This document shows positions 1 to 26,142 of a stretch of 29,375 bases of DNA, piece after piece (position 1 is the first letter of the stretch; every line of letters begins with the position of its first letter). Location of the stretch: IMG/VR virus record IMGVR_UViG_2563366852_000005. One strand, written 5' to 3'. Source of the DNA: a virus (Duplodnaviria; Heunggongvirae; Uroviricota; Caudoviricetes). The notes beneath the pieces are model-generated. The model saw nothing but the letters and a program-made list of their open reading frames with translations. It was not told the DNA's origin and did no database searches. The position numbers were made by a program, and so were the translations under genes.

Positions 1-408
1 ATGGCAACTCTTAAATCAATAATGGCAATAACCACCTTAATAATTTCACTCAATGCATACGCAAACACGAATGACATTAAAACTCTTCAAAAACAACTGA
101 AACCATGGCAACCACTGGAAATCACAACAAAAGATAGCTCTCTTACCGTTGTTCTCCCTGGTAAAAAAATCACATCTGAAGCCTATAATCATTTAATTAT
201 GTCCGGTGTATGCACCCCACTTTGGACACATGACGCTCCTTCTTCATTTTTAAAAAATGTAAGTGAAATCAATATAGTTAACCAATATAAGTCTATTGGA
301 TATACCTTTGAAGACCCATTGACCACATGCAATGAAATCGCTCCGTTAATGGAAAAACCTGCACAAACAGTGGTGTTATCCAAAACTCATACCTACACAG
401 GTAAGTAA
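1..408 (+). CDS. Hypothetical secreted protein; N-terminal signal-peptide-like segment (MATLKSIMAITTLIISLNAYA), AT-rich; lies outside the ogr end of the prophage
   Basis: ORF track; positively charged n-region, hydrophobic core, AYA-like cleavage site; low GC compared with phage genes. Start at window base 1, so the true start could lie upstream. Confidence 0.45.
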   Translation: MATLKSIMAITTLIISLNAYANTNDIKTLQKQLKPWQPLEITTKDSSLTVVLPGKKITSEAYNHLIMSGVCTPLWTHDAPSSFLKNVSEINIVNQYKSIGYTFEDPLTTCNEIAPLMEKPAQTVVLSKTHTYTGK

Positions 409-2415: not shown

Positions 2416-4863
2416 TTAACCGTCATGCATCATGCTGGCACGGGCGCGCGCACGTTTGTCCCGCTCGTATTTTTCGAGCGCATCCTGTAACTGGCGGTCG
2501 AGCTGTGTCCCCGGCGCAGTACCACCCGTCAGGCTGATGTGATATTCGTTTTTACTCTGGTCTACATAAGAGCGGCCAGCCGGTGCCGTGACCGGCTGAT
2601 AAGCCTGATAACCTGCATAAGAGCTGGTCGCCGGAATATAACCACCGCTGCCATACGTGGCGGCTTGAGTTCTGGCGGCGGTCTGGTCAAGTGTGTCTGA
2701 CTCTTTGTTGATGACACCGAGTTTTTCCAGTACCCAGTCAATACCACTGCGCAGTTTGTTGAACGCATTAAGCGGCAGCATCAGCGCGTCAGCCAGTGCC
2801 TGCCCGAACATGACGCCCGTGTCACGGCAACGGTTCAGGGTGTCCTGGGTGGCTTTGACCGGGGCAATCAGGTTTTTAAACCACTGCCACGCGGCCTGTA
2901 ACTTTTCACCCAGCCAGTCAAACACCGGTTTAAGTGGCGTGAACAGTTCCCCCACCGGCGCAAATGCCGCTTTCAGCCCTTCAACCACACCGCCAAAAAA
3001 TGCGCTGACAGGCTCCCAGTATTTACGGATAAGTAACGCCCCGGCGACAATGGCGGCCACCACGGCCACTACCGGCCAGCTAATCGCCCCGATGGCCGTC
3101 ATAACGGCACTGCCAACCGTCGTGAAGATTGCCCCCATTGCGCCTGCTGCTGCGATAATGGCATTGATGCCGGTGATAACTGGCCAGGCTACGAGGCCAA
3201 TGGCACCGATGACACCAATCAGCGCCAGTGCACCACCGACAATGAGGCCGATGGTTGACGCCAGTGATTTGTTTTTCTGGATCCAGCCGTCGAGTTTTAA
3301 CACATACTTTGTGGCCGTCTGCGTGAGATTACGCAGTGCGCCTTCCTGCTGGTCAAACAGGTCAGTGCCAACAGCCTGATACGCTGACTGAAACGATTTA
3401 AAGTCGCCGCCGAGGTTATCCTGCATAACCTTAACCAGTTCTTCTGTTTTACCGTCAGATTCTTTAATCAACCTGGTCAGATTATCCAGCTTGCCGCTGG
3501 CTGCTGCTGTCATTAATACACTTGCTGATGAGCTGGCCTCTTCGCCGAATATTGTTTTCATGTATTCAGCGCGCTGCCCTGTTCCTAGTTTATTTTTTTC
3601 AAAACTCCGCTGAATTTCTTTCAGAATTGAAAAGACAGGTCGCGTATTACCTTTGCTGTCAGTTGTCTTTACGCCAAGCTCTTTAATAGCGTCATACGCT
3701 TTCCCGGTTGGTGCCTGCAAACGACTCAGTACTGCTCGACTTCCTGTGCCAGCCATAGACCCACTGATATTTGCATCGTGTAATGCACCTAACATTGCTG
3801 CTGTTTCTTCCAGGCTGACACCTGCATCTTTTGCCACTGGCCCGACATAGGTAAGTGAATCACTTAGTCCCTCGAATGTGGCTTGCGATTTATTCATCGT
3901 CATTGAAATAACATCAGCAATATGGGAAGCCTTATCGTCAGCAAGCCCGAATGCCGATTTTGTCCCAATAAGTAAAGTGGCGTTTTCCTCCATCGTTTTC
4001 TTGTTTGCCAGTGACATATTCAAAATGGCCGGTGTTTGTGCCAGGATGCCATTTTTATCCGCTCCTGATTTAGCCACGATGATTTGAGCTGCTGCTGCAT
4101 CATCCGCCGAGGCGGCGGTATTATCGCCGAGCTGGCGCGCCTGCTTGCGGAGCGCGGCCATTTCGGCAGAGTCTTTTGCCACTCCGAGCACGGCCTGTAA
4201 TTCTGAGTTTTTCTGCGCAAACTCATAACCGGGCATCAGCAGCTTAACACCAGCCATCGTTCCCGCCGCCGCAATCCCCACACCGGCAGCGCCCACTGAG
4301 GCCATATTTCCGGCCAGTTCCTTTCCGGCCTGATAACGCTGTTTTACTGCATTAAGTTTTGCCTGTTGCGCACTGACACGCGCCAGCGCGTCACGCTGAC
4401 GGTTAAGCTGTGCGGTGGTTTCACTGATACGGTTTTTCAGTCCCTGCTCATCATGTGCAAGATTGCGGGTATTAATTCCCACAGCGGCCAGTTCCCGCTG
4501 CTGGCGTTTAACGGAATCCGTCAGGCGGTTATATTTCGCCTGTAAGTCCTCCGCCGCACGCTTTGCGGATTCCAGCACTTTCGCCTGAGCACGGGTCGGA
4601 CGTTCAGTGTTTTTAAACTGTGTGGCAAGTGCTTCGGCTTCCTGCCGTGCCTTTTCAAGTGCATGACCAGTCACGGCAAGCTGTGCGCTGGTCTTGCGAA
4701 ATCCCTCAATACGGGATGCGTGACCGTTCAGCTCGCGCAGTGATTTTTGTGTTTCCCGGATATCCCCCGACAGCGACTTGCTCGCTGTGCGGATGGATTT
4801 AAACGGGCGGGATGCCTGGTCAACAGCCCTGAGCAATACCTGTAATTTTACATTGTTACTCAT
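2416..4863 (-). CDS. T: Tail tape measure protein (P2 gpT)
   Basis: 815 aa, coiled-coil N-terminal half, Gly/Ala-rich hydrophobic central segment, position after E/E'. Confidence 0.92.
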   Translation of the reverse strand: MSNNVKLQVLLRAVDQASRPFKSIRTASKSLSGDIRETQKSLRELNGHASRIEGFRKTSAQLAVTGHALEKARQEAEALATQFKNTERPTRAQAKVLESAKRAAEDLQAKYNRLTDSVKRQQRELAAVGINTRNLAHDEQGLKNRISETTAQLNRQRDALARVSAQQAKLNAVKQRYQAGKELAGNMASVGAAGVGIAAAGTMAGVKLLMPGYEFAQKNSELQAVLGVAKDSAEMAALRKQARQLGDNTAASADDAAAAQIIVAKSGADKNGILAQTPAILNMSLANKKTMEENATLLIGTKSAFGLADDKASHIADVISMTMNKSQATFEGLSDSLTYVGPVAKDAGVSLEETAAMLGALHDANISGSMAGTGSRAVLSRLQAPTGKAYDAIKELGVKTTDSKGNTRPVFSILKEIQRSFEKNKLGTGQRAEYMKTIFGEEASSSASVLMTAAASGKLDNLTRLIKESDGKTEELVKVMQDNLGGDFKSFQSAYQAVGTDLFDQQEGALRNLTQTATKYVLKLDGWIQKNKSLASTIGLIVGGALALIGVIGAIGLVAWPVITGINAIIAAAGAMGAIFTTVGSAVMTAIGAISWPVVAVVAAIVAGALLIRKYWEPVSAFFGGVVEGLKAAFAPVGELFTPLKPVFDWLGEKLQAAWQWFKNLIAPVKATQDTLNRCRDTGVMFGQALADALMLPLNAFNKLRSGIDWVLEKLGVINKESDTLDQTAARTQAATYGSGGYIPATSSYAGYQAYQPVTAPAGRSYVDQSKNEYHISLTGGTAPGTQLDRQLQDALEKYERDKRARARASMMHDG

Positions 4864-19080: not shown

Positions 19081-19253
19081 TGTCAGGAGTCCTGAATAGT
19101 GATTAGAGGAGTCACATGTCGACATCAGTTTCCCGACGATGCGCATCCTCCGCCATCAGTCCCGGATGGCTTATCACTGACACAACAGCACCTTAGCGAA
19201 TCGCGGGGCGCGACTCAGTAGCCTTGCCGTGTATTCATCACGGCGAGGTATTC
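19081..19253. promoter_or_regulatory. Divergent late promoter region between O and P; contains palindrome ATGTCGACAT (19116..19125) and dyad GTGA-N9-TCAC (19099..19115)
   Basis: Position between divergent late operons; inverted repeats read directly; exact Ogr-box assignment not possible by eye. Confidence 0.45.
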
Positions 19254-21026
19254 ATGACCATCACCACAGACACCACTCTTTTACACGACCCGCGTCGTCA
19301 GGCGGCGCTGCTGTACTGGCAGGGATTTTCCGTGCCGCAGATTGCCGCCATGTTGCAGATGAAACGCCCGACGGTGCAGAGCTGGAAACAGCGCGACGGC
19401 TGGGACAGCGTTGCCCCCATCAGCCGTGTCGAAATGAGTCTGGAAGCGCGACTGACCCAGCTCATTATCAAACCGCAGAAAACCGGCGGTGACTTCAAGG
19501 AAATTGACCTGCTGGGACGCCAGATTGAACGACTGGCGCGGGTCAACCGCTACAGTCAGACCGGCAACGAGGCAGACCTTAATCCGAACGTCGCTAACCG
19601 CAACAAAGGCGGGCGTCGCAAACCGAAAAAGAATTTTTTCAGTGACGAGGCCATCGAAAAGCTGGAGCAGATTTTCTTTGAGCAGTCTTTCGACTATCAG
19701 TTGCACTGGTATCGCGCCGGGCTTGAGCACCGCATCCGCGATATCCTGAAATCCCGCCAGATTGGCGCAACGTTTTATTTTTCCCGCGAGGCGCTGCTGC
19801 GCGCCCTGAAAACCGGCCATAACCAGATTTTTCTGTCGGCCAGTAAAACGCAGGCGTATGTGTTCCGCGAATACATCATCGCCTTTGCCCGTCTGGTTGA
19901 CGTTGACCTGACCGGTGACCCGATTGTCCTGGGCAATAACGGCGCAAAACTGATTTTTCTCGGCACCAACTCCAACACCGCGCAGAGCCATAACGGCGAC
20001 CTGTACGTCGACGAGATTTTCTGGATCCCGAATTTTCAGGTACTGCGTAAGGTGGCATCAGGTATGGCCTCACAGAGCCACCTGCGCTCGACCTATTTCT
20101 CCACCCCGTCCACGCTGGCGCACGACGCCTACCCGTTCTGGTCGGGTGAACTGTTCAACCGGGGACGCGCCAGCGCCGCCGAACGCGTGGAAATCGACGT
20201 CAGTCATAACGCCCTTGCCGGAGGTCTTCTCTGTGCGGACGGCCAGTGGCGGCAGATTGTCACCATTGAGGACGCCCTGAAAGGTGGCTGCACGCTGTTC
20301 GACATTGAGCAGCTTAAACGCGAAAACAGCGCCGACGATTTTAAAAACCTGTTCATGTGTGAATTTGTTGACGACAAGGCATCGGTGTTCCCGTTCGAGG
20401 AGCTGCAACGCTGCATGGTCGACACGCTGGAAGAATGGGAAGACTATGCACCCTTTGCCGCCAATCCGTTCGGCTCCCGCCCGGTATGGATTGGTTACGA
20501 CCCGTCACACCGTGGCGACAGCGCCGGATGCGTGGTGCTGGCACCGCCGGTGGTGGCCGGTGGCAAATTCAGAATACTTGAGCGTCACCAGTGGAAAGGC
20601 ATGGACTTTGCCACCCAGGCTGAATCCATCCGCAAACTCACCGAAAAATACAACGTCGAATACATCGGAATTGATGCCACCGGCCTCGGTGTCGGCGTGT
20701 TCCAGCTCGTGCGCTCGTTCTATCCCGCCGCGCGCGATATCCGCTACACACCGGAAATGAAAACCGCAATGGTGCTCAAGGCAAAAGACGTTATCCGCCG
20801 TGGCTGTCTGGAATATGACGTCAGCGCCACCGACATCACCAGCTCGTTTATGGCTATCCGAAAGACCATGACCAGCAGCGGACGCAGCGCCACCTATGAG
20901 GCCAGTCGCAGCGAGGAAGCCAGCCACGCCGACCTCGCCTGGGCGACCATGCACGCCCTGTTAAATGAGCCACTCACCGCCGGTATCAGCACCCCGCTGA
21001 CATCCACCATTCTGGAGTTTTACTGA
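19254..21026 (+). CDS. P: Terminase large (ATPase) subunit P (590 aa)
   Basis: MTITTDTTLLHDPRRQAALLYWQGFSVPQIAAMLQ...; ORF-track start at 19224 is a TTG upstream extension. Confidence 0.93.
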   Translation: MTITTDTTLLHDPRRQAALLYWQGFSVPQIAAMLQMKRPTVQSWKQRDGWDSVAPISRVEMSLEARLTQLIIKPQKTGGDFKEIDLLGRQIERLARVNRYSQTGNEADLNPNVANRNKGGRRKPKKNFFSDEAIEKLEQIFFEQSFDYQLHWYRAGLEHRIRDILKSRQIGATFYFSREALLRALKTGHNQIFLSASKTQAYVFREYIIAFARLVDVDLTGDPIVLGNNGAKLIFLGTNSNTAQSHNGDLYVDEIFWIPNFQVLRKVASGMASQSHLRSTYFSTPSTLAHDAYPFWSGELFNRGRASAAERVEIDVSHNALAGGLLCADGQWRQIVTIEDALKGGCTLFDIEQLKRENSADDFKNLFMCEFVDDKASVFPFEELQRCMVDTLEEWEDYAPFAANPFGSRPVWIGYDPSHRGDSAGCVVLAPPVVAGGKFRILERHQWKGMDFATQAESIRKLTEKYNVEYIGIDATGLGVGVFQLVRSFYPAARDIRYTPEMKTAMVLKAKDVIRRGCLEYDVSATDITSSFMAIRKTMTSSGRSATYEASRSEEASHADLAWATMHALLNEPLTAGISTPLTSTILEFY

Positions 21027-22060
21027 TGAGCAAGAAAAAAGGGAAAACACCTCGACCTGCGGCAAAAACAATCACCGCCAGCGCCCCGAAAATGGAAGCA
21101 TTCACCTTTGGCGAGCCGGTGCCGGTACTCGACCGCCGTGACATTCTGGATTACGTCGAATGTATCAGTAACGGCAGATGGTATGAGCCGCCGGTCAGCT
21201 TTACCGGTCTGGCAAAAAGCCTGCGTGCTGCCGTGCATCACAGCTCACCGATTTACGTCAAACGTAATATTCTGGCCTCGACATTTATCCCGCATCCGTG
21301 GCTTTCCCAGCAGGATTTCAGCCGCTTTGTGCTGGATTTTCTGGTCTTCGGTAATGCGTTTCTGGAAAAGCGATACAGCACCACCGGTAAGGTCATCAGA
21401 CTGGAAACCTCACCGGCAAAATATACCCGCCGTGGCGTGGAGGAGGATGTTTACTGGTGGGTGCCGTCCTTCAACGAACCGACACCTTTCGCGCCCGGCT
21501 CCGTGTTTCACCTGCTGGAGCCGGATATTAATCAGGAGCTGTACGGCCTGCCGGAATATCTCAGCGCCCTTAACTCTGCCTGGCTGAATGAGTCGGCCAC
21601 ACTGTTCCGCCGCAAGTATTACGAAAACGGCGCACATGCCGGATATATCATGTATATCACCGACGCATTGCAGGATCGCGATTACATTGACTCACTTCGC
21701 GAAAACATGGCCAAGTCGAAAGGACGCAATAACTTTAATAATCTGTTTCTCTATGCCCCACAGGGAAAGCCAGACGGCATCAAAATTATCCCGCTCAGTG
21801 AAGTGGCGACAAAGGACGATTTTTTTAATATCAAAAAATCCAGCGCCGCTGACCTACTGGACGCGCACCGCATCCCCTTTCAGTTGATGGGTGGCAAGCC
21901 GGAGAACGTCGGGTCGCTGGGTGATATTGAGAAAGTGGCAAAGGTCTTTGTCCGCAATGAGCTTATCCCGTTACAGGACAGGATCCGAGAGATAAACGGC
22001 TGGCTCGGTCAGGAGGTCATCCGCTTTAAAAACTACTCACTGGACACTGACAACGGCTGA
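21026..22060 (+). CDS. Q: Portal protein Q (344 aa)
   Basis: MSKKKGKTPRPAAKT...MEAFTFGEPVPVLDRRDILDYVECISNGRWYEPP...; TGATG overlap with P. Confidence 0.94.
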   Translation: MSKKKGKTPRPAAKTITASAPKMEAFTFGEPVPVLDRRDILDYVECISNGRWYEPPVSFTGLAKSLRAAVHHSSPIYVKRNILASTFIPHPWLSQQDFSRFVLDFLVFGNAFLEKRYSTTGKVIRLETSPAKYTRRGVEEDVYWWVPSFNEPTPFAPGSVFHLLEPDINQELYGLPEYLSALNSAWLNESATLFRRKYYENGAHAGYIMYITDALQDRDYIDSLRENMAKSKGRNNFNNLFLYAPQGKPDGIKIIPLSEVATKDDFFNIKKSSAADLLDAHRIPFQLMGGKPENVGSLGDIEKVAKVFVRNELIPLQDRIREINGWLGQEVIRFKNYSLDTDNG

Positions 22061-22229: not shown

Positions 22230-22248
22230 GTGCTTTCCCCGCCTCGCC
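22230..22248. other. cos: cos site: 19-nt cohesive-end sequence GTGCTTTCCCCGCCTCGCC (reverse complement of the P2 cos GGCGAGGCGGGGAAAGCAC)
   Basis: Exact match to the P2 cohesive-end sequence as recalled from memory; located between Q and the old-side cargo as in P2. Confidence 0.75.
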
Positions 22249-22376
22249 TGCCCGCTTTATGGGTCGATTTTAATGCAAGTGCACGAACACACTGGAGACG
22301 CACCAGTACTGGCGGTGGTCACGTAGATCCGCCCCTTAAAAGCCATGCAGAATAATGCAACTATTGCGGGCGTCGG

Positions 22377-22796
22377 CTAATCATCTTCTAAAGGTGGAAT
22401 TTTGATGCCACTAATTAGCAGTACTTTCCGGTATGCCTCAAAAATAATGTTGTGTGTTTTTTGTAAATCATCGAGCATTTTTTGCCGTCCTGCTGGGGTA
22501 TCTTTGGCGAAATTATGAGCGCGAAAAAAATCATGTGCCAAGTAGTTTCGAGCTGATAGAGCCAGTTCTACATGTTGTAGCGTTTCATCATCTGCCACCC
22601 CTTTTTTACGCAATAAATTGCTTAGTCTGCCTAATGTTAACTTATCAAATTTTAAGAATTTTTCTTTTAATGTTGGAATGTCTTCGCCTTGCTTCATTTC
22701 ATGTTCGATAAGGACATTAATCAGTTCAACTTCCAACAATTGTGCAGCTTCTGAGGTGTAACCGAACTTCCAAAAGACTTCATCAAGCGTTGCCAT
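22377..22796 (-). CDS. Hypothetical small alpha-helical protein with an HEPN-type R-N-x3-H motif (RNYLAH); candidate RNase toxin or abortive-infection effector in the tin/old cargo slot
   Basis: 139 aa from ATG at 22796 (ORF-track start 22805 is GTG); GAGTGG Shine-Dalgarno-like element upstream; about 35% GC versus about 52% for the phage backbone; motif read from translation. Confidence 0.6.
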   Translation of the reverse strand: MATLDEVFWKFGYTSEAAQLLEVELINVLIEHEMKQGEDIPTLKEKFLKFDKLTLGRLSNLLRKKGVADDETLQHVELALSARNYLAHDFFRAHNFAKDTPAGRQKMLDDLQKTHNIIFEAYRKVLLISGIKIPPLEDD

Positions 22797-22933
22797 GTGT
22801 TCCACTCAAGATAAATGCAGGTTATGAAAAAGAAGAATGATGATGGAAATTCCAGATGAAGTCTAACGCCTCGCTCCGCTCGTTGTTCAACCCCGCCAGC
22901 CCTGAAAACAAGTTTCACGACTGGCGGCGTTCT
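22797..22933 (-). promoter_or_regulatory. Putative own promoter/leader region for the AT-rich HEPN-like gene
   Basis: 137-nt non-coding gap with a GC-rich to AT-rich transition upstream of the ORF; no clear consensus -35/-10 assignable by eye. Confidence 0.3.
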
Positions 22934-23140
22934 CTATCGTCTGCGTGGTGGTGGCGTAACTCTTGATTGACCGATATGGTTAAACCGCCCGTAATTATCC
23001 CGGACTATTTCGGCACACACGACCAGCTCATCGGGCGTCAGATTTTCGTTGACCATAATCCGCTGTAAACGCTGAACAATAGCCATCAGCTTGATATTTT
23101 TAGTTTTATGGTGCGGTATCTCGCCTGGTATTCTGTGCAT
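22934..23140 (-). CDS. Small hypothetical protein (68 aa), translationally coupled to the upstream ASCH-like gene (TAATG overlap)
   Basis: ATG at 23138..23140 overlaps the TAA of the upstream gene; helical-looking sequence MHRIPGEIPHHKTKNIKLMAIVQRLQRIMVNENLTPDELVV... Confidence 0.4.
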   Translation of the reverse strand: MHRIPGEIPHHKTKNIKLMAIVQRLQRIMVNENLTPDELVVCAEIVRDNYGRFNHIGQSRVTPPPRRR

Positions 23141-23592
23141 TATCCAAGCCACCCGTTTTGCTGTGCACGCTCCATCTGTTCATCTGAATAGTTCCATGCT
23201 CCATCCGTGGCAACCATTGCCCCGCCAGACATCCCCGTCTCTGGTTCATACATAACAGCAAGGCCGAGCTGATGCATAATTTCATGATTAATTCTGAATA
23301 CCAGACCACGCTCACTAAGTTCTTTCCAGTTCACAATCTCATATGCGCCTGTATTAAGCCGCTCAATACTTAGCAAGACATAATCTTCCAGCCAGTCTGA
23401 CAGGTCAGTAACATCTGTTATCCGGGCTTCAACCTTTCGCCCCGTATACACACCCTGCACCCATTCATGCAAAATCAACGTGTCCCCGCGCTCATAATTA
23501 CGGTCATTTTTCCGAAACTCTGCACGTTTATGTCCTTCCAGCACAAGGTCGAAATATTTTGCGTGCAGCTTTACCTCGTGAATTTTTGCCAT
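23140..23592 (-). CDS. ASCH/PUA-like (DUF3850-like) domain protein with a C-terminal HEIMH (HExxH) motif, translationally coupled to A
   Basis: 150 aa from ATG at 23590..23592 overlapping the A stop (TAATG); N-terminal pattern KIHEVKLHAKYFDLVLEGHKRAEFRKNDRNYERGDTLILHEW...YTGR resembles ASCH-like phage proteins; C-terminal INHEIMHQLG. Confidence 0.6.
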   Translation of the reverse strand: MAKIHEVKLHAKYFDLVLEGHKRAEFRKNDRNYERGDTLILHEWVQGVYTGRKVEARITDVTDLSDWLEDYVLLSIERLNTGAYEIVNWKELSERGLVFRINHEIMHQLGLAVMYEPETGMSGGAMVATDGAWNYSDEQMERAQQNGWLG

Positions 23593-25877
23593 TATGTCCA
23601 CTCCATTACTGTTGAGAATCCCGGCCACTCATCAGCGACCGGATACGTGAATTTTTTCCCGTCGTAATTTACGGTTGCCCCACGCGCCAGCGCCTCAAGC
23701 TCCCATCGCTGAGGCCTGATACCGTTCTGAGCAAGGTCAACACGGATACGGGTAATTTGCATTCTTTCCGACCGGGTCAGTCTGGCCGATGGTGCAATTT
23801 CATGCGGTTTTAACGGGCTTCCGTTTCTTTGCTGACGATTTGGTGTTCTCATGTCGTGTTTTAATGCGCCCCTGAGCGCCCTCACGACCTCCTGGTCATT
23901 CCATTCGATAACACCGTCATCAACCAGATTAAGCACTGCTGCGGCGTGTTCAGAAGGTGTGGGAGCCGGTAACGAAGCATCACCGCCGGTGAACTTTCCA
24001 CAGTTATTGACAGGACTCCGAGGCGCGGCGATGCCGCTTTTTAAAGTCAAAGGCTCAACGACCGGAACTTTCGGCACAATGCGCCAGTCCGTCGTTCTGG
24101 TGATATGAATATGTCGCGCGCCGAGATGCGGCGCGTAAATGCCGACCACTCTCTCGACTTCTTCTTCGTACTCGTTAACGTCTTCCGACGGGCTACGGGC
24201 AACCCTGACAGTCTGACAATCGCGCGGGACATTTGCCCCACCCTGCGCGCTGATATACAACGCAAAATCACCACTGTCTGCGGCGGCGCGTGCAGCCTCG
24301 ACGCGCTCGTCAAACTCATCAGCAATGCTGACGCCGCGAGGCAATTTGCGTAGTTCACGGTAAGCCCCCATTGTCGGCAGACCAACCGTTTTAAATTGCG
24401 GAATGCGCCACGTTGACGCCCATGCGGTAACAGCCGCAGCAGTGTCTTTCAGCGGCCTGCCGGTATCGTTATCGAGCTGACCATCCAGTGCATAGCCGTC
24501 GATGTTTTTTGAGATGTATTTCGCGATATACCCCGCAGCACCGCCCCGGTTAAGGTGTTTTGCCTGAAAACGGTTTCGCGCGGCTCCTCTTTCGTCGCCA
24601 TCCTCTTTGAGCGCGTAGCGACGCATGATTTCGATAATCTGGTTACGCTGGCGTGGATTACAAAAAAGCATCATATGCCAGTGCGGCGTTCCGTCGTGGT
24701 GTGGTTCAACAACACGCAAACCGTAGGCCTGTAAATCATTATCCTTGAATGCCGTGCGCATCAGGCTCCAGATACGGCAGAGATAACGCTGCGCATCCTT
24801 TGGATTAAATGCCTCATCGTTCCAGCCGTGATTTAGCTGGACGGTTTTACTTTCGCCTTTTCTGACCTGACGTGTCGGGTGATACTTTGACGGCGCGGTA
24901 AGCGTGATAAACATCCCCACATCACCCTCTGCGGCGGCGTAACGCTCAATACCGGCGATGGTGTTCATCAGCTCCATCCGGCGAATTTCTGGATTTGAAA
25001 TACTGCCCATCACCTTACTGATAAGGTCGATGCGCTCGCCGGTTTCCTTGTTTTCAAGGTCACACGATTTAAGAAATTCCAGATTTGCCTGGCGGCGTGC
25101 ACGTACATCACGAATGGCATGTTTACTGGCATAAGGAGAACGGTCTTTATTGACCTCCCCGACAGCAATCAGTAACGCCTCATGCCAGCGCATGCGCTGG
25201 CCTTTGAGCTGATGAGTCCACCACTCATCGTTAAACAGACGGGCAATGGCAGAATACGCCTGCCTCGTGGTCATCTGTCCTTTACGGTATTTTTTCCAGT
25301 AGAGCGGGGAAATATTGAAAGCACGTGCAGCGCCAGCAACATGACCATACAGGTGAGCCTGCGCCTCATCCGTAAACAGCGATTCTTTTTCGCCATGCGC
25401 ATCCACCCAGGCATCGCTGAGTTCCTCATACATCATGAAAAGCTGCGATGAGATACGGGCGGCAAACTTTTTCAGCTCTTTGTCATTCATTCCAGGCAGG
25501 CGCGCATAGTGGTCACGCTCTGCCAGAAACAGCAACGACGCGTCGGTGTTCATTTCATGGCGCTGATTCACACGCTCAATGCGCGGCCATAAACGACGCT
25601 GAAAAGTGGATGTGAGGAAATAAAACCCGTGCACCGGGCTTTTATTGCGCCGGATGTAGTCATAGCGTGAAGTAAACAGCGAGCGCAAAAAGTAAGGCAG
25701 GCGGTTAATCGTGGATAAAACACCTTGCACCTGACGCATCTCGTCACGTGTAAGGGGTCTTTCGCGCCCGACAGCCTCGCGTGGCGCGTTCCATGCATAA
25801 GCACCGGTAAACGCCTTACCGGTGCCTGCGGCAAATGCTGACGGAGGGACAAAACGCCCGGAGGCTTTAACGGCCAT
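23592..25877 (-). CDS. A: Replication initiation protein A (rolling-circle nickase, 761 aa)
   Basis: MAVKASGRFVPPSAFAAGTGK...; start chosen to match P2 gpA length; ORF-track start at 25919 is an upstream extension. Confidence 0.93.
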   Translation of the reverse strand: MAVKASGRFVPPSAFAAGTGKAFTGAYAWNAPREAVGRERPLTRDEMRQVQGVLSTINRLPYFLRSLFTSRYDYIRRNKSPVHGFYFLTSTFQRRLWPRIERVNQRHEMNTDASLLFLAERDHYARLPGMNDKELKKFAARISSQLFMMYEELSDAWVDAHGEKESLFTDEAQAHLYGHVAGAARAFNISPLYWKKYRKGQMTTRQAYSAIARLFNDEWWTHQLKGQRMRWHEALLIAVGEVNKDRSPYASKHAIRDVRARRQANLEFLKSCDLENKETGERIDLISKVMGSISNPEIRRMELMNTIAGIERYAAAEGDVGMFITLTAPSKYHPTRQVRKGESKTVQLNHGWNDEAFNPKDAQRYLCRIWSLMRTAFKDNDLQAYGLRVVEPHHDGTPHWHMMLFCNPRQRNQIIEIMRRYALKEDGDERGAARNRFQAKHLNRGGAAGYIAKYISKNIDGYALDGQLDNDTGRPLKDTAAAVTAWASTWRIPQFKTVGLPTMGAYRELRKLPRGVSIADEFDERVEAARAAADSGDFALYISAQGGANVPRDCQTVRVARSPSEDVNEYEEEVERVVGIYAPHLGARHIHITRTTDWRIVPKVPVVEPLTLKSGIAAPRSPVNNCGKFTGGDASLPAPTPSEHAAAVLNLVDDGVIEWNDQEVVRALRGALKHDMRTPNRQQRNGSPLKPHEIAPSARLTRSERMQITRIRVDLAQNGIRPQRWELEALARGATVNYDGKKFTYPVADEWPGFSTVMEWT

Positions 25878-26142
25878 ATGAGCCAAAAGCCTCTGAGCAA
25901 CGCTTGCTGAGTTGCTCAACCTGCGCGTTTAAATCAGCAAAAGACTTTGCGCTTCCGGTCAGAATATCGTGATGCATCAGGCCGGAAACGAGCTGGCTTA
26001 ATTTCGGGTAATAACCAACCACCGCCAGCCATTCCTGACCGGCGTTTTTACCGCTTTCCGCTCTCTTTTTCTCGTGGAGAATAAACTGAAAGCTGTCACT
26101 GGTAACGACATAACGTTCGCCAATTTCAATACGAATACTCAT
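25867..26142 (-). CDS. P2 orf83-like hypothetical early protein
   Basis: 91 aa immediately upstream of A, overlapping its start; conserved early-operon position. Confidence 0.75.
   Translation of the reverse strand: MSIRIEIGERYVVTSDSFQFILHEKKRAESGKNAGQEWLAVVGYYPKLSQLVSGLMHHDILTGSAKSFADLNAQVEQLSKRCSEAFGSYGR

What the first reader, a model, noticed from the sequence alone, without database searches (positions are those of the whole stretch)
22377..22796. AT-rich gene encoding a small helical protein with a canonical HEPN R-N-x3-H motif
The translation contains SARNYLAHDFF, which is the R-[N]-x-x-x-H signature of HEPN RNases, in the C-terminal third of a roughly 140-aa helical protein, a typical HEPN domain size. 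GC is about 35%, far below the flanking phage genes, and the gene has its own 137-nt upstream region, so it looks like a horizontally acquired moron that could be expressed in the lysogen. HEPN proteins are frequent toxins and Abi effectors.
Basis: partly seen in the sequence, partly recalled or inferred. Interest (0 to 1): 0.8.

Follow-up and report, generated by a model that had tools for sequence, protein, structure and literature searches.

The report
Unannotated solo HEPN gene in P2 hotspot
A small, AT-rich gene is the only cargo at the known anti-phage hotspot of a P2-like prophage, and it encodes a previously unclassified stand-alone HEPN-type protein that is most likely a latent RNA-cutting enzyme that blocks rival phages, though this has not been tested.

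Summary
Window 22377-22796 (minus strand) is a real 139-aa gene: dN/dS is 0.07-0.17 against homologues, and GC is 38% against 53% for the window. It carries R83-N84-Y-L-A-H88.

The window is a P2-like prophage. The gene is the sole cargo (22312-22862) between replication gene A and portal gene Q, 128 nt from cos. This is the published tin/old defence hotspot.

No Pfam, NCBIfam, PADLOC or PDB sequence match exists; every source calls it hypothetical. The family is nevertheless large: 1,442 clusters at 50% identity, across many phyla. R-[NDHST]-x3-H is kept in 231 of 235 full-length members.

No antitoxin or conserved partner was found. Tandem paralogues and a fused tandem suggest it works as a dimer.

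Verdict: a new HEPN family, probably a solo abortive-infection RNase like HepS or ApeA. Fold confidence is about 0.8; defence function about 0.5. Moderate interest.

The parts
22377..22796 (-). Coding sequence of the 139-aa solo HEPN-like protein (ATG at 22796, TAG at 22379-22377).
   Evidence: ORF listing and sequence. Matches phrog_12893 over its full length. dN/dS is 0.07-0.17. AlphaFold pLDDT is 91, with five helices.
22533..22550 (-). Codons for R83-N84-Y85-L86-A87-H88, the predicted Rx4H catalytic motif.
   Evidence: Position. Invariant in 20 close homologues. R-[NDHST]-x3-H is present in 231 of 235 members. It lies near the C-terminal end of helix 70-93, where HEPN domains carry the motif.
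22312..22862 (.). The variable cargo segment (551 bp) of the hotspot. It holds only this gene plus 66 nt upstream and 65 nt downstream.
   Evidence: Homology to Yersinia phage vB_YpM_50 (94-96% identity) stops at 22311 and resumes at 22863. That phage carries a different gene there. Another P2 record carries a methylase plus two other genes at the same site.
22863..22935 (-). Conserved backbone element at the junction, directly upstream of the cargo. It comprises a hairpin (22893-22927) just after the stop of the upstream ORF, followed by TTGAAC...GTTAGACT, which ends exactly at the cargo boundary.
   Evidence: Alignment of 7 loci from P2-type and 186/PSP3-type prophages. In the hairpin, 94% of cells are paired and 4 of 12 pairs show changes on both sides; only 2-6 of 500 shuffles reach the observed values. 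Its role as terminator, promoter or recombination junction is inferred, not shown.
22230..22248 (.). cos cohesive-end sequence (gtgctttccccgcctcgcc, the reverse complement of GGCGAGGCGGGGAAAGCAC). The gene's stop codon lies 128 nt away.
   Evidence: The sequence was read. Its identity with the P2 cos end is from my memory. Independent support: the right end of the linear PSP3 record aligns to window 22249.
21026..22060 (+). Portal gene Q, one of the two flanking landmarks of the hotspot.
   Evidence: Annotated as portal protein in matching records.
23592..25919 (-). Replication gene A, the other flanking landmark. Between it and the cargo lie two backbone genes: a DUF3850/ASCH gene (23140-23628) and a 72-aa ORF (22934-23152).
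   Evidence: Annotation of matching records. Pfam and PHROG hits for the two backbone genes.

Best explanation
The gene encodes a stand-alone, minimal HEPN-superfamily protein from a family that no database currently models. A P2-like prophage carries it as the single cargo of its cos-proximal accessory hotspot.

**Proposed mechanism** (inferred from the HEPN superfamily and from the characterised solo HEPN defences HepS and ApeA):
1. The protein forms a homodimer or higher oligomer that brings two R83-N84-x3-H88 motifs together into a composite, metal-independent RNase site.
2. It is latent in the uninfected lysogen, which is why no antitoxin is needed.
3. It is switched on by a product or consequence of infection by a competing phage.
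4. It then cuts cellular or phage RNA, with tRNA anticodon loops being the usual target of such enzymes. This aborts the infection and protects the lysogen population and the prophage.

**Shown here:** it is a real gene, horizontally acquired cargo of the hotspot, with a conserved Rx4H motif, an HEPN-compatible predicted fold and no conserved partner.

**Inferred:** RNase activity, oligomerisation, latency, trigger, target and the defence phenotype.
For: **Location**
- The gene lies between gpA and gpQ next to cos. This is the locus that carries tin and old in P2 and many validated defence systems.
- Every enterobacterial homologue examined sits at the same locus: E. coli 06-3462, PSP3, Lelliottia, Kosakonia, Citrobacter and swine ETEC.
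- It is alone in some of these. In others it is combined with different cargo: a GmrSD_N protein, an HNH protein, or two unknown genes.

**Motif**
- R83, N84, L86 and H88 are invariant in close homologues.
- They are at least 90% conserved in 85 representatives that share less than 50% identity with each other.
- The motif is present in 231 of 235 members.
- A polar N directly after the R is typical of active HEPN domains.

**Fold**
- pLDDT is 91 and pTM 0.83.
- The layout is a long helix 1, a broken second element (40-51 and 55-64), helix 70-93 carrying the motif near its end, a loop, then helix 101-128.
- This matches the published description of HEPN domains: an insert between helices 2 and 3, and the motif at the end of helix 3.
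- The Foldseek hit with the highest probability is the HEPN protein 1wwp.

**Sequence**
- The family consensus gives HEPN_Apea (E 5.3e-4) and DUF4145 (E 8.7e-4) as its top two Pfam hits. Both alignments span the motif.
- Four of five subfamily consensus sequences hit DUF4145 in the same register, and one hits HEPN_Cthe2314.
- Among 85 members scanned singly, 14 weak hits fall in HEPN families. DUF4145 is an HEPN family.

**Dimer hints**
- One protein is a natural tandem duplication of the domain (P0134).
- Adjacent paralogous genes occur in three loci, two of them with 4-nt overlaps.
- One protein fuses the domain to a HepT-like HEPN domain (P0063).

**Conflict-system neighbourhood in distant relatives**
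- Neighbouring genes include Ymh HEPN, AbiU2 HEPN, AbiJ_NTD proteins, Gabija and a GajB-like UvrD helicase.

**Precedent**
- HepS is a prophage-encoded solo HEPN with an R100-N101-x3-H105 motif. It has no partner, is inactive by default, is triggered by a phage protein and cleaves tRNA.
- ApeA is a single-protein HEPN anticodon nuclease.
Against: - No HEPN model is matched above its curated cut-off. The window protein itself and the enterobacterial consensus give no HEPN hit at all.
- Profile-profile comparison with a 30-sequence Ymh HEPN alignment was negative, with probability 0.15%.
- Family profiles find nothing among PDB sequences.
- The conserved acidic residue is E22 in helix 1, with no Ex3[KR] in helix 2, unlike the typical HEPN pattern.
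- PADLOC has no model for it.
- No promoter was found for expression in the lysogen, and the gene is co-oriented with the early replication operon.
- Not all cargo of this hotspot is defensive.
- Many distant homologues sit among housekeeping genes rather than in obvious defence islands.
- No experiment exists.
Confidence: 0.5

Rival explanations
1. The protein is an HEPN RNase that serves the phage's own life cycle rather than excluding other phages. It could process or degrade host or phage transcripts during lytic growth, or counter a host defence. In that case it would be expressed by read-through from the early operon.
For: The gene is co-oriented with gpA, the DUF3850 gene and the 72-aa ORF. 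No sigma-70 consensus promoter lies in the 137-nt gap, and no canonical terminator lies between them. The junction hairpin lacks a U-run. Some hotspot cargo is not defensive.
Against: The gene is dispensable and swapped for unrelated cargo in near-identical phages, which is the behaviour of accessory defence genes. Distant homologues are chromosomal or plasmid-borne solo genes with no phage context. That is hard to reconcile with a role specific to a phage life cycle.
Confidence: 0.17
2. The protein is the toxin of an addiction or toxin-antitoxin module whose antitoxin I did not recognise. The antitoxin could be a small RNA, a tiny ORF, or a factor encoded in trans. The module's main effect would be to stabilise the prophage.
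For: Minimal HEPN proteins of about 140 aa are typically HepT-type toxins paired with MNT antitoxins (and established knowledge). A 22-nt inverted repeat pairs the 5' untranslated region with the first codons. One relative is fused to an addiction-module antidote domain (P0191).
Against: The cargo is 551 bp and holds only this ORF. No MNT or nucleotidyltransferase partner occurs in the window or in the neighbourhoods of about 61 loci, and no neighbour family is shared beyond close relatives. There is no Rfam hit and no tandem or direct repeats of the type III antitoxin kind. The antisense ORF is not conserved. The inverted repeat folds no better than shuffled sequence (z = -0.97) and is not conserved in PSP3 or Kosakonia. 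Three Thalassospira species keep the gene as a solo between the same housekeeping genes.
Confidence: 0.1
3. The protein is a non-catalytic helical-bundle protein, such as a regulator, adaptor or inhibitor. The conserved R-N-x3-H would then serve ligand or partner binding, and the resemblance to HEPN would be convergent.
Confidence: 0.13

Closest known systems
HepS, the 'HEPN Solo' abortive-infection protein of Salmonella prophage Gifsy-1 (Sargen et al., Nature 2026, PMC13043305)
   Same: A single small HEPN-type protein encoded in a prophage accessory locus. It has an R-N-x3-H motif (R100-N101...H105 in HepS; R83-N84...H88 here). It has no co-occurring partner or inhibitor, and homologues are scattered across bacterial families.
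ApeA, a single-protein HEPN anticodon nuclease (Pfam HEPN_Apea PF18739; bioRxiv 10.64898/2026.01.26.701840)
   Same: HEPN_Apea is the best Pfam hit of the family consensus (E 5.3e-4, spanning the motif), and 3 of 85 members hit it weakly. ApeA is a one-gene defence.
   Different: The match is below the curated cut-off (20.9 against 24.4 bits) and absent for the window protein itself. ApeA proteins carry a large N-terminal domain and form doughnut-shaped oligomers with a ligand pocket. This protein is 139 aa and entirely helical.
DUF4145 (PF13643), an HEPN family of Pfam clan CL0291
   Same: It gives recurrent sub-threshold matches in the same register (protein positions about 54-98 to profile positions about 30-74 of 88). 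These come from the overall consensus and from four of five subfamily consensus sequences, and from 4 of 85 single members. It is often linked to restriction and defence contexts.
   Different: All scores (14-20 bits) are below the 23.1-bit cut-off, and only about half of the domain aligns. DUF4145 is usually fused to restriction endonuclease, helicase or other modules, whereas this family is almost always solo.
HepT/MNT type VII toxin-antitoxin HEPN toxins (PF01934, e.g. PDB 7ae2, 1ylm)
   Different: There is no MNT antitoxin gene next to it, in the window or in about 61 other loci. The domain itself has no HepT Pfam match.
tin and old of phage P2, and other cargo of the P2 gpA/gpQ hotspot (Rousset et al. 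2022, PMC9122126; Vassallo et al. 2022, PMC9519451)
   Same: The same locus, the same cos-proximal position, and the same pattern of cargo swapping between near-identical phages.
   Different: The proteins are unrelated. This gene matches none of the PADLOC 2.0 models, which include systems from those studies.

Membership tests
HEPN superfamily | Rx4-6H motif with a polar residue (N, D or H) directly after R, conserved across the family | tested here: met
   R83-N84-Y-L-A-H88. Invariant in 20 close homologues, at least 90% conserved in 85 diverse representatives, and present in 231 of 235 members.
HEPN superfamily | Four-helix up-down bundle, often with an insert between helices 2 and 3, and the motif at the end of helix 3 before the loop to helix 4 | tested here: met
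   The AlphaFold model has pLDDT 91, with helices 4-35, 40-51, 55-64, 70-93 and 101-128. The motif is at 83-88 and the following loop at 94-100, which fits the description. I had secondary structure and search scores only, not coordinates, so I could not check the superposition of catalytic residues.
HEPN superfamily | Structural similarity to solved HEPN domains | tested here: inconclusive
HEPN superfamily | Significant profile match to an established HEPN family | tested here: inconclusive
   Consensus sequence: HEPN_Apea E 5.3e-4 and DUF4145 E 8.7e-4, which are the top two hits but below their gathering scores. The DUF4145 hit is reproduced in 4 of 5 subfamilies. hhalign against Ymh is negative. 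There are no PDB sequence hits. HHpred against the full Pfam and PDB libraries was not available.
HEPN superfamily | Second conserved acidic residue, typically Ex3[KR] in helix 2, close to the motif | tested here: not met
   The invariant acidic residue is E22 in helix 1 (EAAQLLE), and there is no Ex3[KR] pattern. The paper says this feature is present in many families, not all. I could not measure how close E22 lies to the motif.
HEPN superfamily | Metal-independent RNase activity that depends on the R and H residues | not testable with these tools
   Needs biochemistry.
HepT/MNT type VII toxin-antitoxin | Adjacent minimal nucleotidyltransferase (MNT) antitoxin gene | tested here: not met
   The 551-bp cargo holds no other gene. 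No MNT appears among 149 neighbours in about 61 loci; the only NTP_transferase hit is the Pfam sugar-nucleotidyltransferase family PF00483, not an MNT.
HepT/MNT type VII toxin-antitoxin | Match to the HepT-like model (PF01934) | tested here: not met
   No hit for the window protein or for any consensus sequence. The single HepT hit among members is a separate C-terminal domain of the fusion protein P0063.
HepS-type solo HEPN abortive infection | Single HEPN protein in a prophage accessory locus with no co-occurring partner | tested here: met
   Sole cargo of the P2 hotspot, and no conserved neighbour.
HepS-type solo HEPN abortive infection | Sequence or structural homology to HepS (PDB 9OIK) | tested here: inconclusive
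HepS-type solo HEPN abortive infection | Anti-phage phenotype, latency, a phage-protein trigger and tRNA anticodon cleavage | not testable with these tools
   Needs experiments.
ApeA | HEPN_Apea match above threshold, plus the N-terminal ApeA domain | tested here: not met
   The window protein has no hit. The consensus scores 20.9 bits against a cut-off of 24.4. The protein is 139 aa and all-helical, with no N-terminal beta-rich domain.
Cargo of the P2 gpA/gpQ (tin/old) hotspot | Located between replication gene A and portal gene Q next to cos, and replaced by other genes in closely related phages | tested here: met
.
Known or candidate defence systems in PADLOC-DB 2.0 | Match to any of its 5,027 models | tested here: not met
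   No hit for the window protein or for three distant homologues.

The most novel reading that the evidence does not exclude
This 139-aa protein founds a widespread, unrecognised family of minimal solo HEPN immune proteins, with over 1,400 clusters at 50% identity across many bacterial phyla. In this reading, one small domain both senses infection and executes RNA cleavage. The tandem-paralogue and fused-tandem forms would be heterodimeric elaborations of the same switch. It would be among the smallest self-contained abortive-infection effectors known, and a new named defence family from the P2 hotspot.
Probability: 0.35. Interest if true: 0.6.

Novelty: new member of a known kind. Interest (0 to 1): 0.48.

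Why it matters
[quoted passage not shown] This gene is one of them. Its exact protein is on 172 public contigs and its 90%-identity cluster on hundreds more, from E. coli and Salmonella, always labelled 'hypothetical protein'.

If it is an active solo HEPN nuclease, three things follow:
- It adds a new, very small family to the HEPN defence repertoire.
- It gives annotation pipelines a model for more than a thousand unannotated protein clusters.
- It offers a compact system for asking how a bare HEPN domain stays silent without an antitoxin and what switches it on. That question has so far been answered only for HepS and ApeA.

The concept itself is already established: prophage-encoded solo HEPN abortive infection, in a known hotspot. 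The advance would therefore be incremental rather than conceptual.

Tried and rejected
**Database and structure searches that found nothing**
- Direct Pfam, NCBIfam and PADLOC scans of the protein gave nothing. PHROGs gave only an unnamed family.
- Searches of PDB sequences with two family profiles gave only chance hits.
- Foldseek against PDB and against BFVD gave nothing significant. The afdb50 library was not available.

**Attempts at a profile-profile HEPN test**
- hhalign of the family against a Ymh (PF09509) alignment that I built from a neighbour gene was negative.
- hhalign of the family profile against 338 single neighbour proteins found only paralogues, not the genuine Ymh or AbiU2 neighbours. 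Single-sequence sensitivity is too low for this.
- I tried to obtain HEPN reference sequences from the PDB through the HepT-like domain of P0063 and through a Ymh protein. There were no usable hits.
- I could not identify which three neighbours carry DUF4145.

**Comparison with HepS**
- I tried to fetch HepS from the Gifsy-1 record. The LT2 copy has no such gene.

**Search for a partner or antitoxin**
- No neighbour family is shared beyond close relatives.
- There is no Rfam match and no direct repeats.
- The 85-aa antisense ORF is not conserved.

**Possible translational control**
- A hairpin that pairs the 5' untranslated region with the start of the coding sequence was rejected. Its fold z-score is -0.97, and it is not conserved.

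**Other**
- AlphaFold on the natural tandem fusion P0134 without an alignment gave pLDDT 52.6, which is uninformative.
- The search for related loci with the broad alignment failed for lack of a conserved stretch. The narrower alignment worked.

Full report
**1. What is in the sequence**

The window is a P2-like (Peduovirus) prophage. The large terminase subunit is at 19224-21026 (+) and portal gene Q at 21026-22060 (+). A terminator follows Q, and the cos end sequence lies at 22230-22248. On the minus strand come, in order:
- the candidate gene (22377-22796);
- a 72-aa ORF (22934-23152);
- a DUF3850/ASCH gene (23140-23628);
- replication gene A (23592-25919).

These assignments rest.

The candidate ORF starts at the ATG at 22796, which is the start shared by all homologues, and ends at TAG 22379-22377. 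It encodes 139 aa, and SARNYLAHDFF is residues 81-91.

GC is 37.9% (GC3 32%) against 53.1% for the window. GC is slightly higher than stated, and the motif lies at 60% of the length rather than in the last third.

RNxxxH occurs only once in the 15,258 residues of long open frames in the window. I estimate that about 0.5-0.7 occurrences would be expected by chance, so the motif means something only because it is conserved.

**2. It is a real gene and it is mobile cargo**

dN/dS against homologues that are 67-78% identical is 0.07-0.17. The longest antisense frame is not conserved.

Yersinia phage vB_YpM_50 is 94-96% identical on both sides. Homology stops at 22311 and resumes at 22863, and that phage has a different gene in between. 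Another P2 record carries a methylase and two further genes at the same site. The cargo is therefore 22312-22862 (551 bp) and holds this gene alone.

The right end of the linear PSP3 genome aligns to window 22249. PSP3 gp38, its last gene, is a 67%-identical homologue.

Rousset et al. and Vassallo et al. describe exactly this gpA/gpQ, cos-proximal locus, home of tin and old, as a hotspot rich in anti-phage systems. It also contains some non-defence cargo. A 2026 study reports that 19% of P2-like elements have only unknown genes there.

All enterobacterial homologues I located sit at this locus. Some are alone: E. coli 06-3462, Lelliottia, one Citrobacter contig and PSP3. Others sit beside unrelated cargo:
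- a GmrSD_N protein in Kosakonia;
- two unknown genes in another Citrobacter contig;
- an HNH protein in swine ETEC, where the allele is a mosaic that shares only its last 173 nt with the window.

The gene is rare. Only 1 of 5,426 complete E. coli genomes has the full-length allele by megablast. In draft data, the exact protein is on 172 contigs, and the other members of its 90%-identity cluster are on hundreds more, always as 'hypothetical protein'.

**3. Is it HEPN?**

*Direct searches.* The protein gives no hit in Pfam, NCBIfam or PADLOC, and matches only an unnamed PHROG.

*Family size.* The family is large: 1,442 representatives at 50% identity with E at or below 0.001. Members come from Alphaproteobacteria, Acidobacteriota, Gemmatimonadota, Planctomycetota, Nitrospirota and other phyla. 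All are unannotated and without Pfam domains.

*Motif.* Across 85 diverse representatives, the nearly invariant residues are G12, Q19, E22, T54, G56, A79, R83, N84, L86, H88, F90, G103, M107 and L111. R-[NDHST]-x3-H is present in 231 of 235 full-length members.

*Predicted structure.* AlphaFold with the 20-sequence alignment gives pLDDT 91 and pTM 0.83. The helices are 4-35, 40-51, 55-64, 70-93 and 101-128. Anantharaman et al. define the HEPN domain as a four-helix up-down bundle, frequently with an insert between helices 2 and 3. [quoted passage not shown] The model fits this description.

*Sequence profiles.* The family consensus has HEPN_Apea (E 5.3e-4) and DUF4145 (E 8.7e-4) as its two best Pfam hits, both covering the motif and both below their curated cut-offs. 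Four of five subfamily consensus sequences reproduce the DUF4145 match in the same register, and one hits HEPN_Cthe2314. The enterobacterial consensus hits none. Single members give 14 weak hits to HEPN families.

*Negative results.* hhalign against a Ymh alignment gave probability 0.15%. There are no PDB sequence hits. There is no Ex3[KR] motif; the invariant acidic residue is E22 in helix 1.

*Judgement.* Membership of the HEPN superfamily is likely (about 0.8), as a family of its own. It is not proven.

**4. Partners and oligomeric state**

The cargo has no second gene, no Rfam match and no repeats.

In about 61 loci from species-representative genomes, no neighbour family recurs beyond close relatives. 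No MNT antitoxin appears, and many neighbours are housekeeping genes. Three Thalassospira species keep the gene as a solo at the same chromosomal site. Plasmid copies are also solo.

Several associations do occur:
- adjacent paralogues of the same family in three loci, two of them with 4-nt overlaps;
- a natural tandem duplication in one polypeptide (P0134) and a fusion to a HepT-like HEPN domain (P0063);
- neighbouring Ymh and AbiU2 HEPN genes;
- nearby AbiJ_NTD proteins, Gabija and a GajB-like UvrD helicase.

These fit a domain that works as a dimer, as HEPN nucleases do, and that lives among conflict systems. They are hints, not proof.

**5. Most likely mechanism**

By analogy with HepS and ApeA, I propose a latent homo-oligomeric RNase. 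HepS is a prophage solo HEPN with an R-N-x3-H motif and no partner. It is inactive until a phage tail-tip protein binds, and then cuts tRNA anticodon loops. ApeA is a single-protein HEPN anticodon nuclease activated by deoxydinucleotides.

The protein's R83/N84/H88 site would be assembled or exposed on infection by a competing phage, aborting that infection. Only the anatomy is shown here. Activity, trigger, target and phenotype are all inferred.

The rivals are a phage-autonomous RNase role, an unrecognised toxin-antitoxin arrangement, and a non-catalytic bundle. They are weighed in the structured sections of this report.

**6. Expression**

No sigma-70 consensus promoter lies in the 137-nt gap. 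The half of the gap nearest the upstream ORF (22863-22935) is a backbone element conserved in P2-type and 186/PSP3-type prophages. It has two parts:
- a hairpin at 22893-22927, immediately after the stop codon of the 72-aa ORF, with compensatory changes in 4 of 12 pairs;
- the sequence TTGAAC...(19 nt)...TAGACT, with GTTAGACT invariant, ending exactly at the cargo boundary.

This may be a backbone-supplied expression or termination signal for whatever cargo is inserted. That idea is untested.

**7. Novelty and verdict**

The gene is unannotated, and the family has no model in Pfam, NCBIfam or PADLOC 2.0. I found no paper describing it.

Conceptually it falls within known kinds: the HEPN superfamily, the P2 hotspot, and solo HEPN abortive infection. 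I therefore file it as a new member (a new family) of a known kind. It is of moderate interest and a good, cheap candidate for experimental validation.

Noticed in passing
window 22863-22935 (minus strand); hairpin 22893-22927: A conserved element sits at the backbone/cargo junction, shared by P2-type and 186/PSP3-type prophages. It has a hairpin directly after the stop of the 72-aa ORF, with compensatory base changes in 4 of 12 pairs. Then comes TTGAAC...GTTAGACT, which ends exactly where cargo begins. It could be a terminator or attenuator plus a backbone promoter for any inserted cargo, or a recombination junction.
   Followed up: partly
window 22775-22796 and 22843-22864: A 22-nt inverted repeat (77% complementary) lies between the first codons of the gene and its 5' untranslated region. 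The upstream arm even reads ATGGAAATTCCAGATGAAGTCT, like a diverged inverted copy of the gene's start. The fold is no better than shuffled sequence (z = -0.97) and is not conserved in PSP3 or Kosakonia, so it is probably a recombination scar.
   Followed up: yes
L091 (E. coli K_EC180 and 11 other mostly swine ETEC genomes), locus 3501-3920: A mosaic allele of the gene. The last 173 nt are 99% identical to the window, while the rest of the protein is only about 75% identical. It lies downstream of a 443-aa HNH-motif protein in the same hotspot. This indicates recombination inside the gene.
   Followed up: partly
L046 5390-5902, L050 5534-6004, L069 6456-7331; proteins P0134 and P0063: Distant relatives occur as adjacent paralogous gene pairs, as a tandem duplication fused into one 331-aa protein with two RNxLAHH motifs, and fused to a HepT-like HEPN domain. 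In Kangiella (L037) the gene is flanked by a RiboL-PSP-like HEPN candidate and a possible divergent paralogue.
   Followed up: partly
L011/L013 5460-6107 and L007 5481-6949: In Alphaproteobacteria the family gene is followed at 6-30 nt by unannotated genes: a 215-aa gene in one lineage, and 306-aa plus 183-aa genes in another. These travel with it between different genomic contexts, one next to Gabija and one next to AbiJ_NTD proteins. They may be lineage-specific partners.
   Followed up: partly
window 1-408 (+), GC about 40%: A low-GC 135-aa ORF lies beyond ogrK at the edge of the prophage. It is annotated as hypothetical in E. coli. Only 44 of the 2,074 genomes that match the region cover at least 80% of the 760-nt query (the ORF plus ogrK). 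It may be another variable moron next to the attachment site.
   Followed up: no
window 23140-23628 (-): The backbone gene next to gpA combines a DUF3850/ASCH (RNA-binding-like) domain with a DUF7415 domain. It is conserved in P2-like phages and its function is unknown.
   Followed up: no
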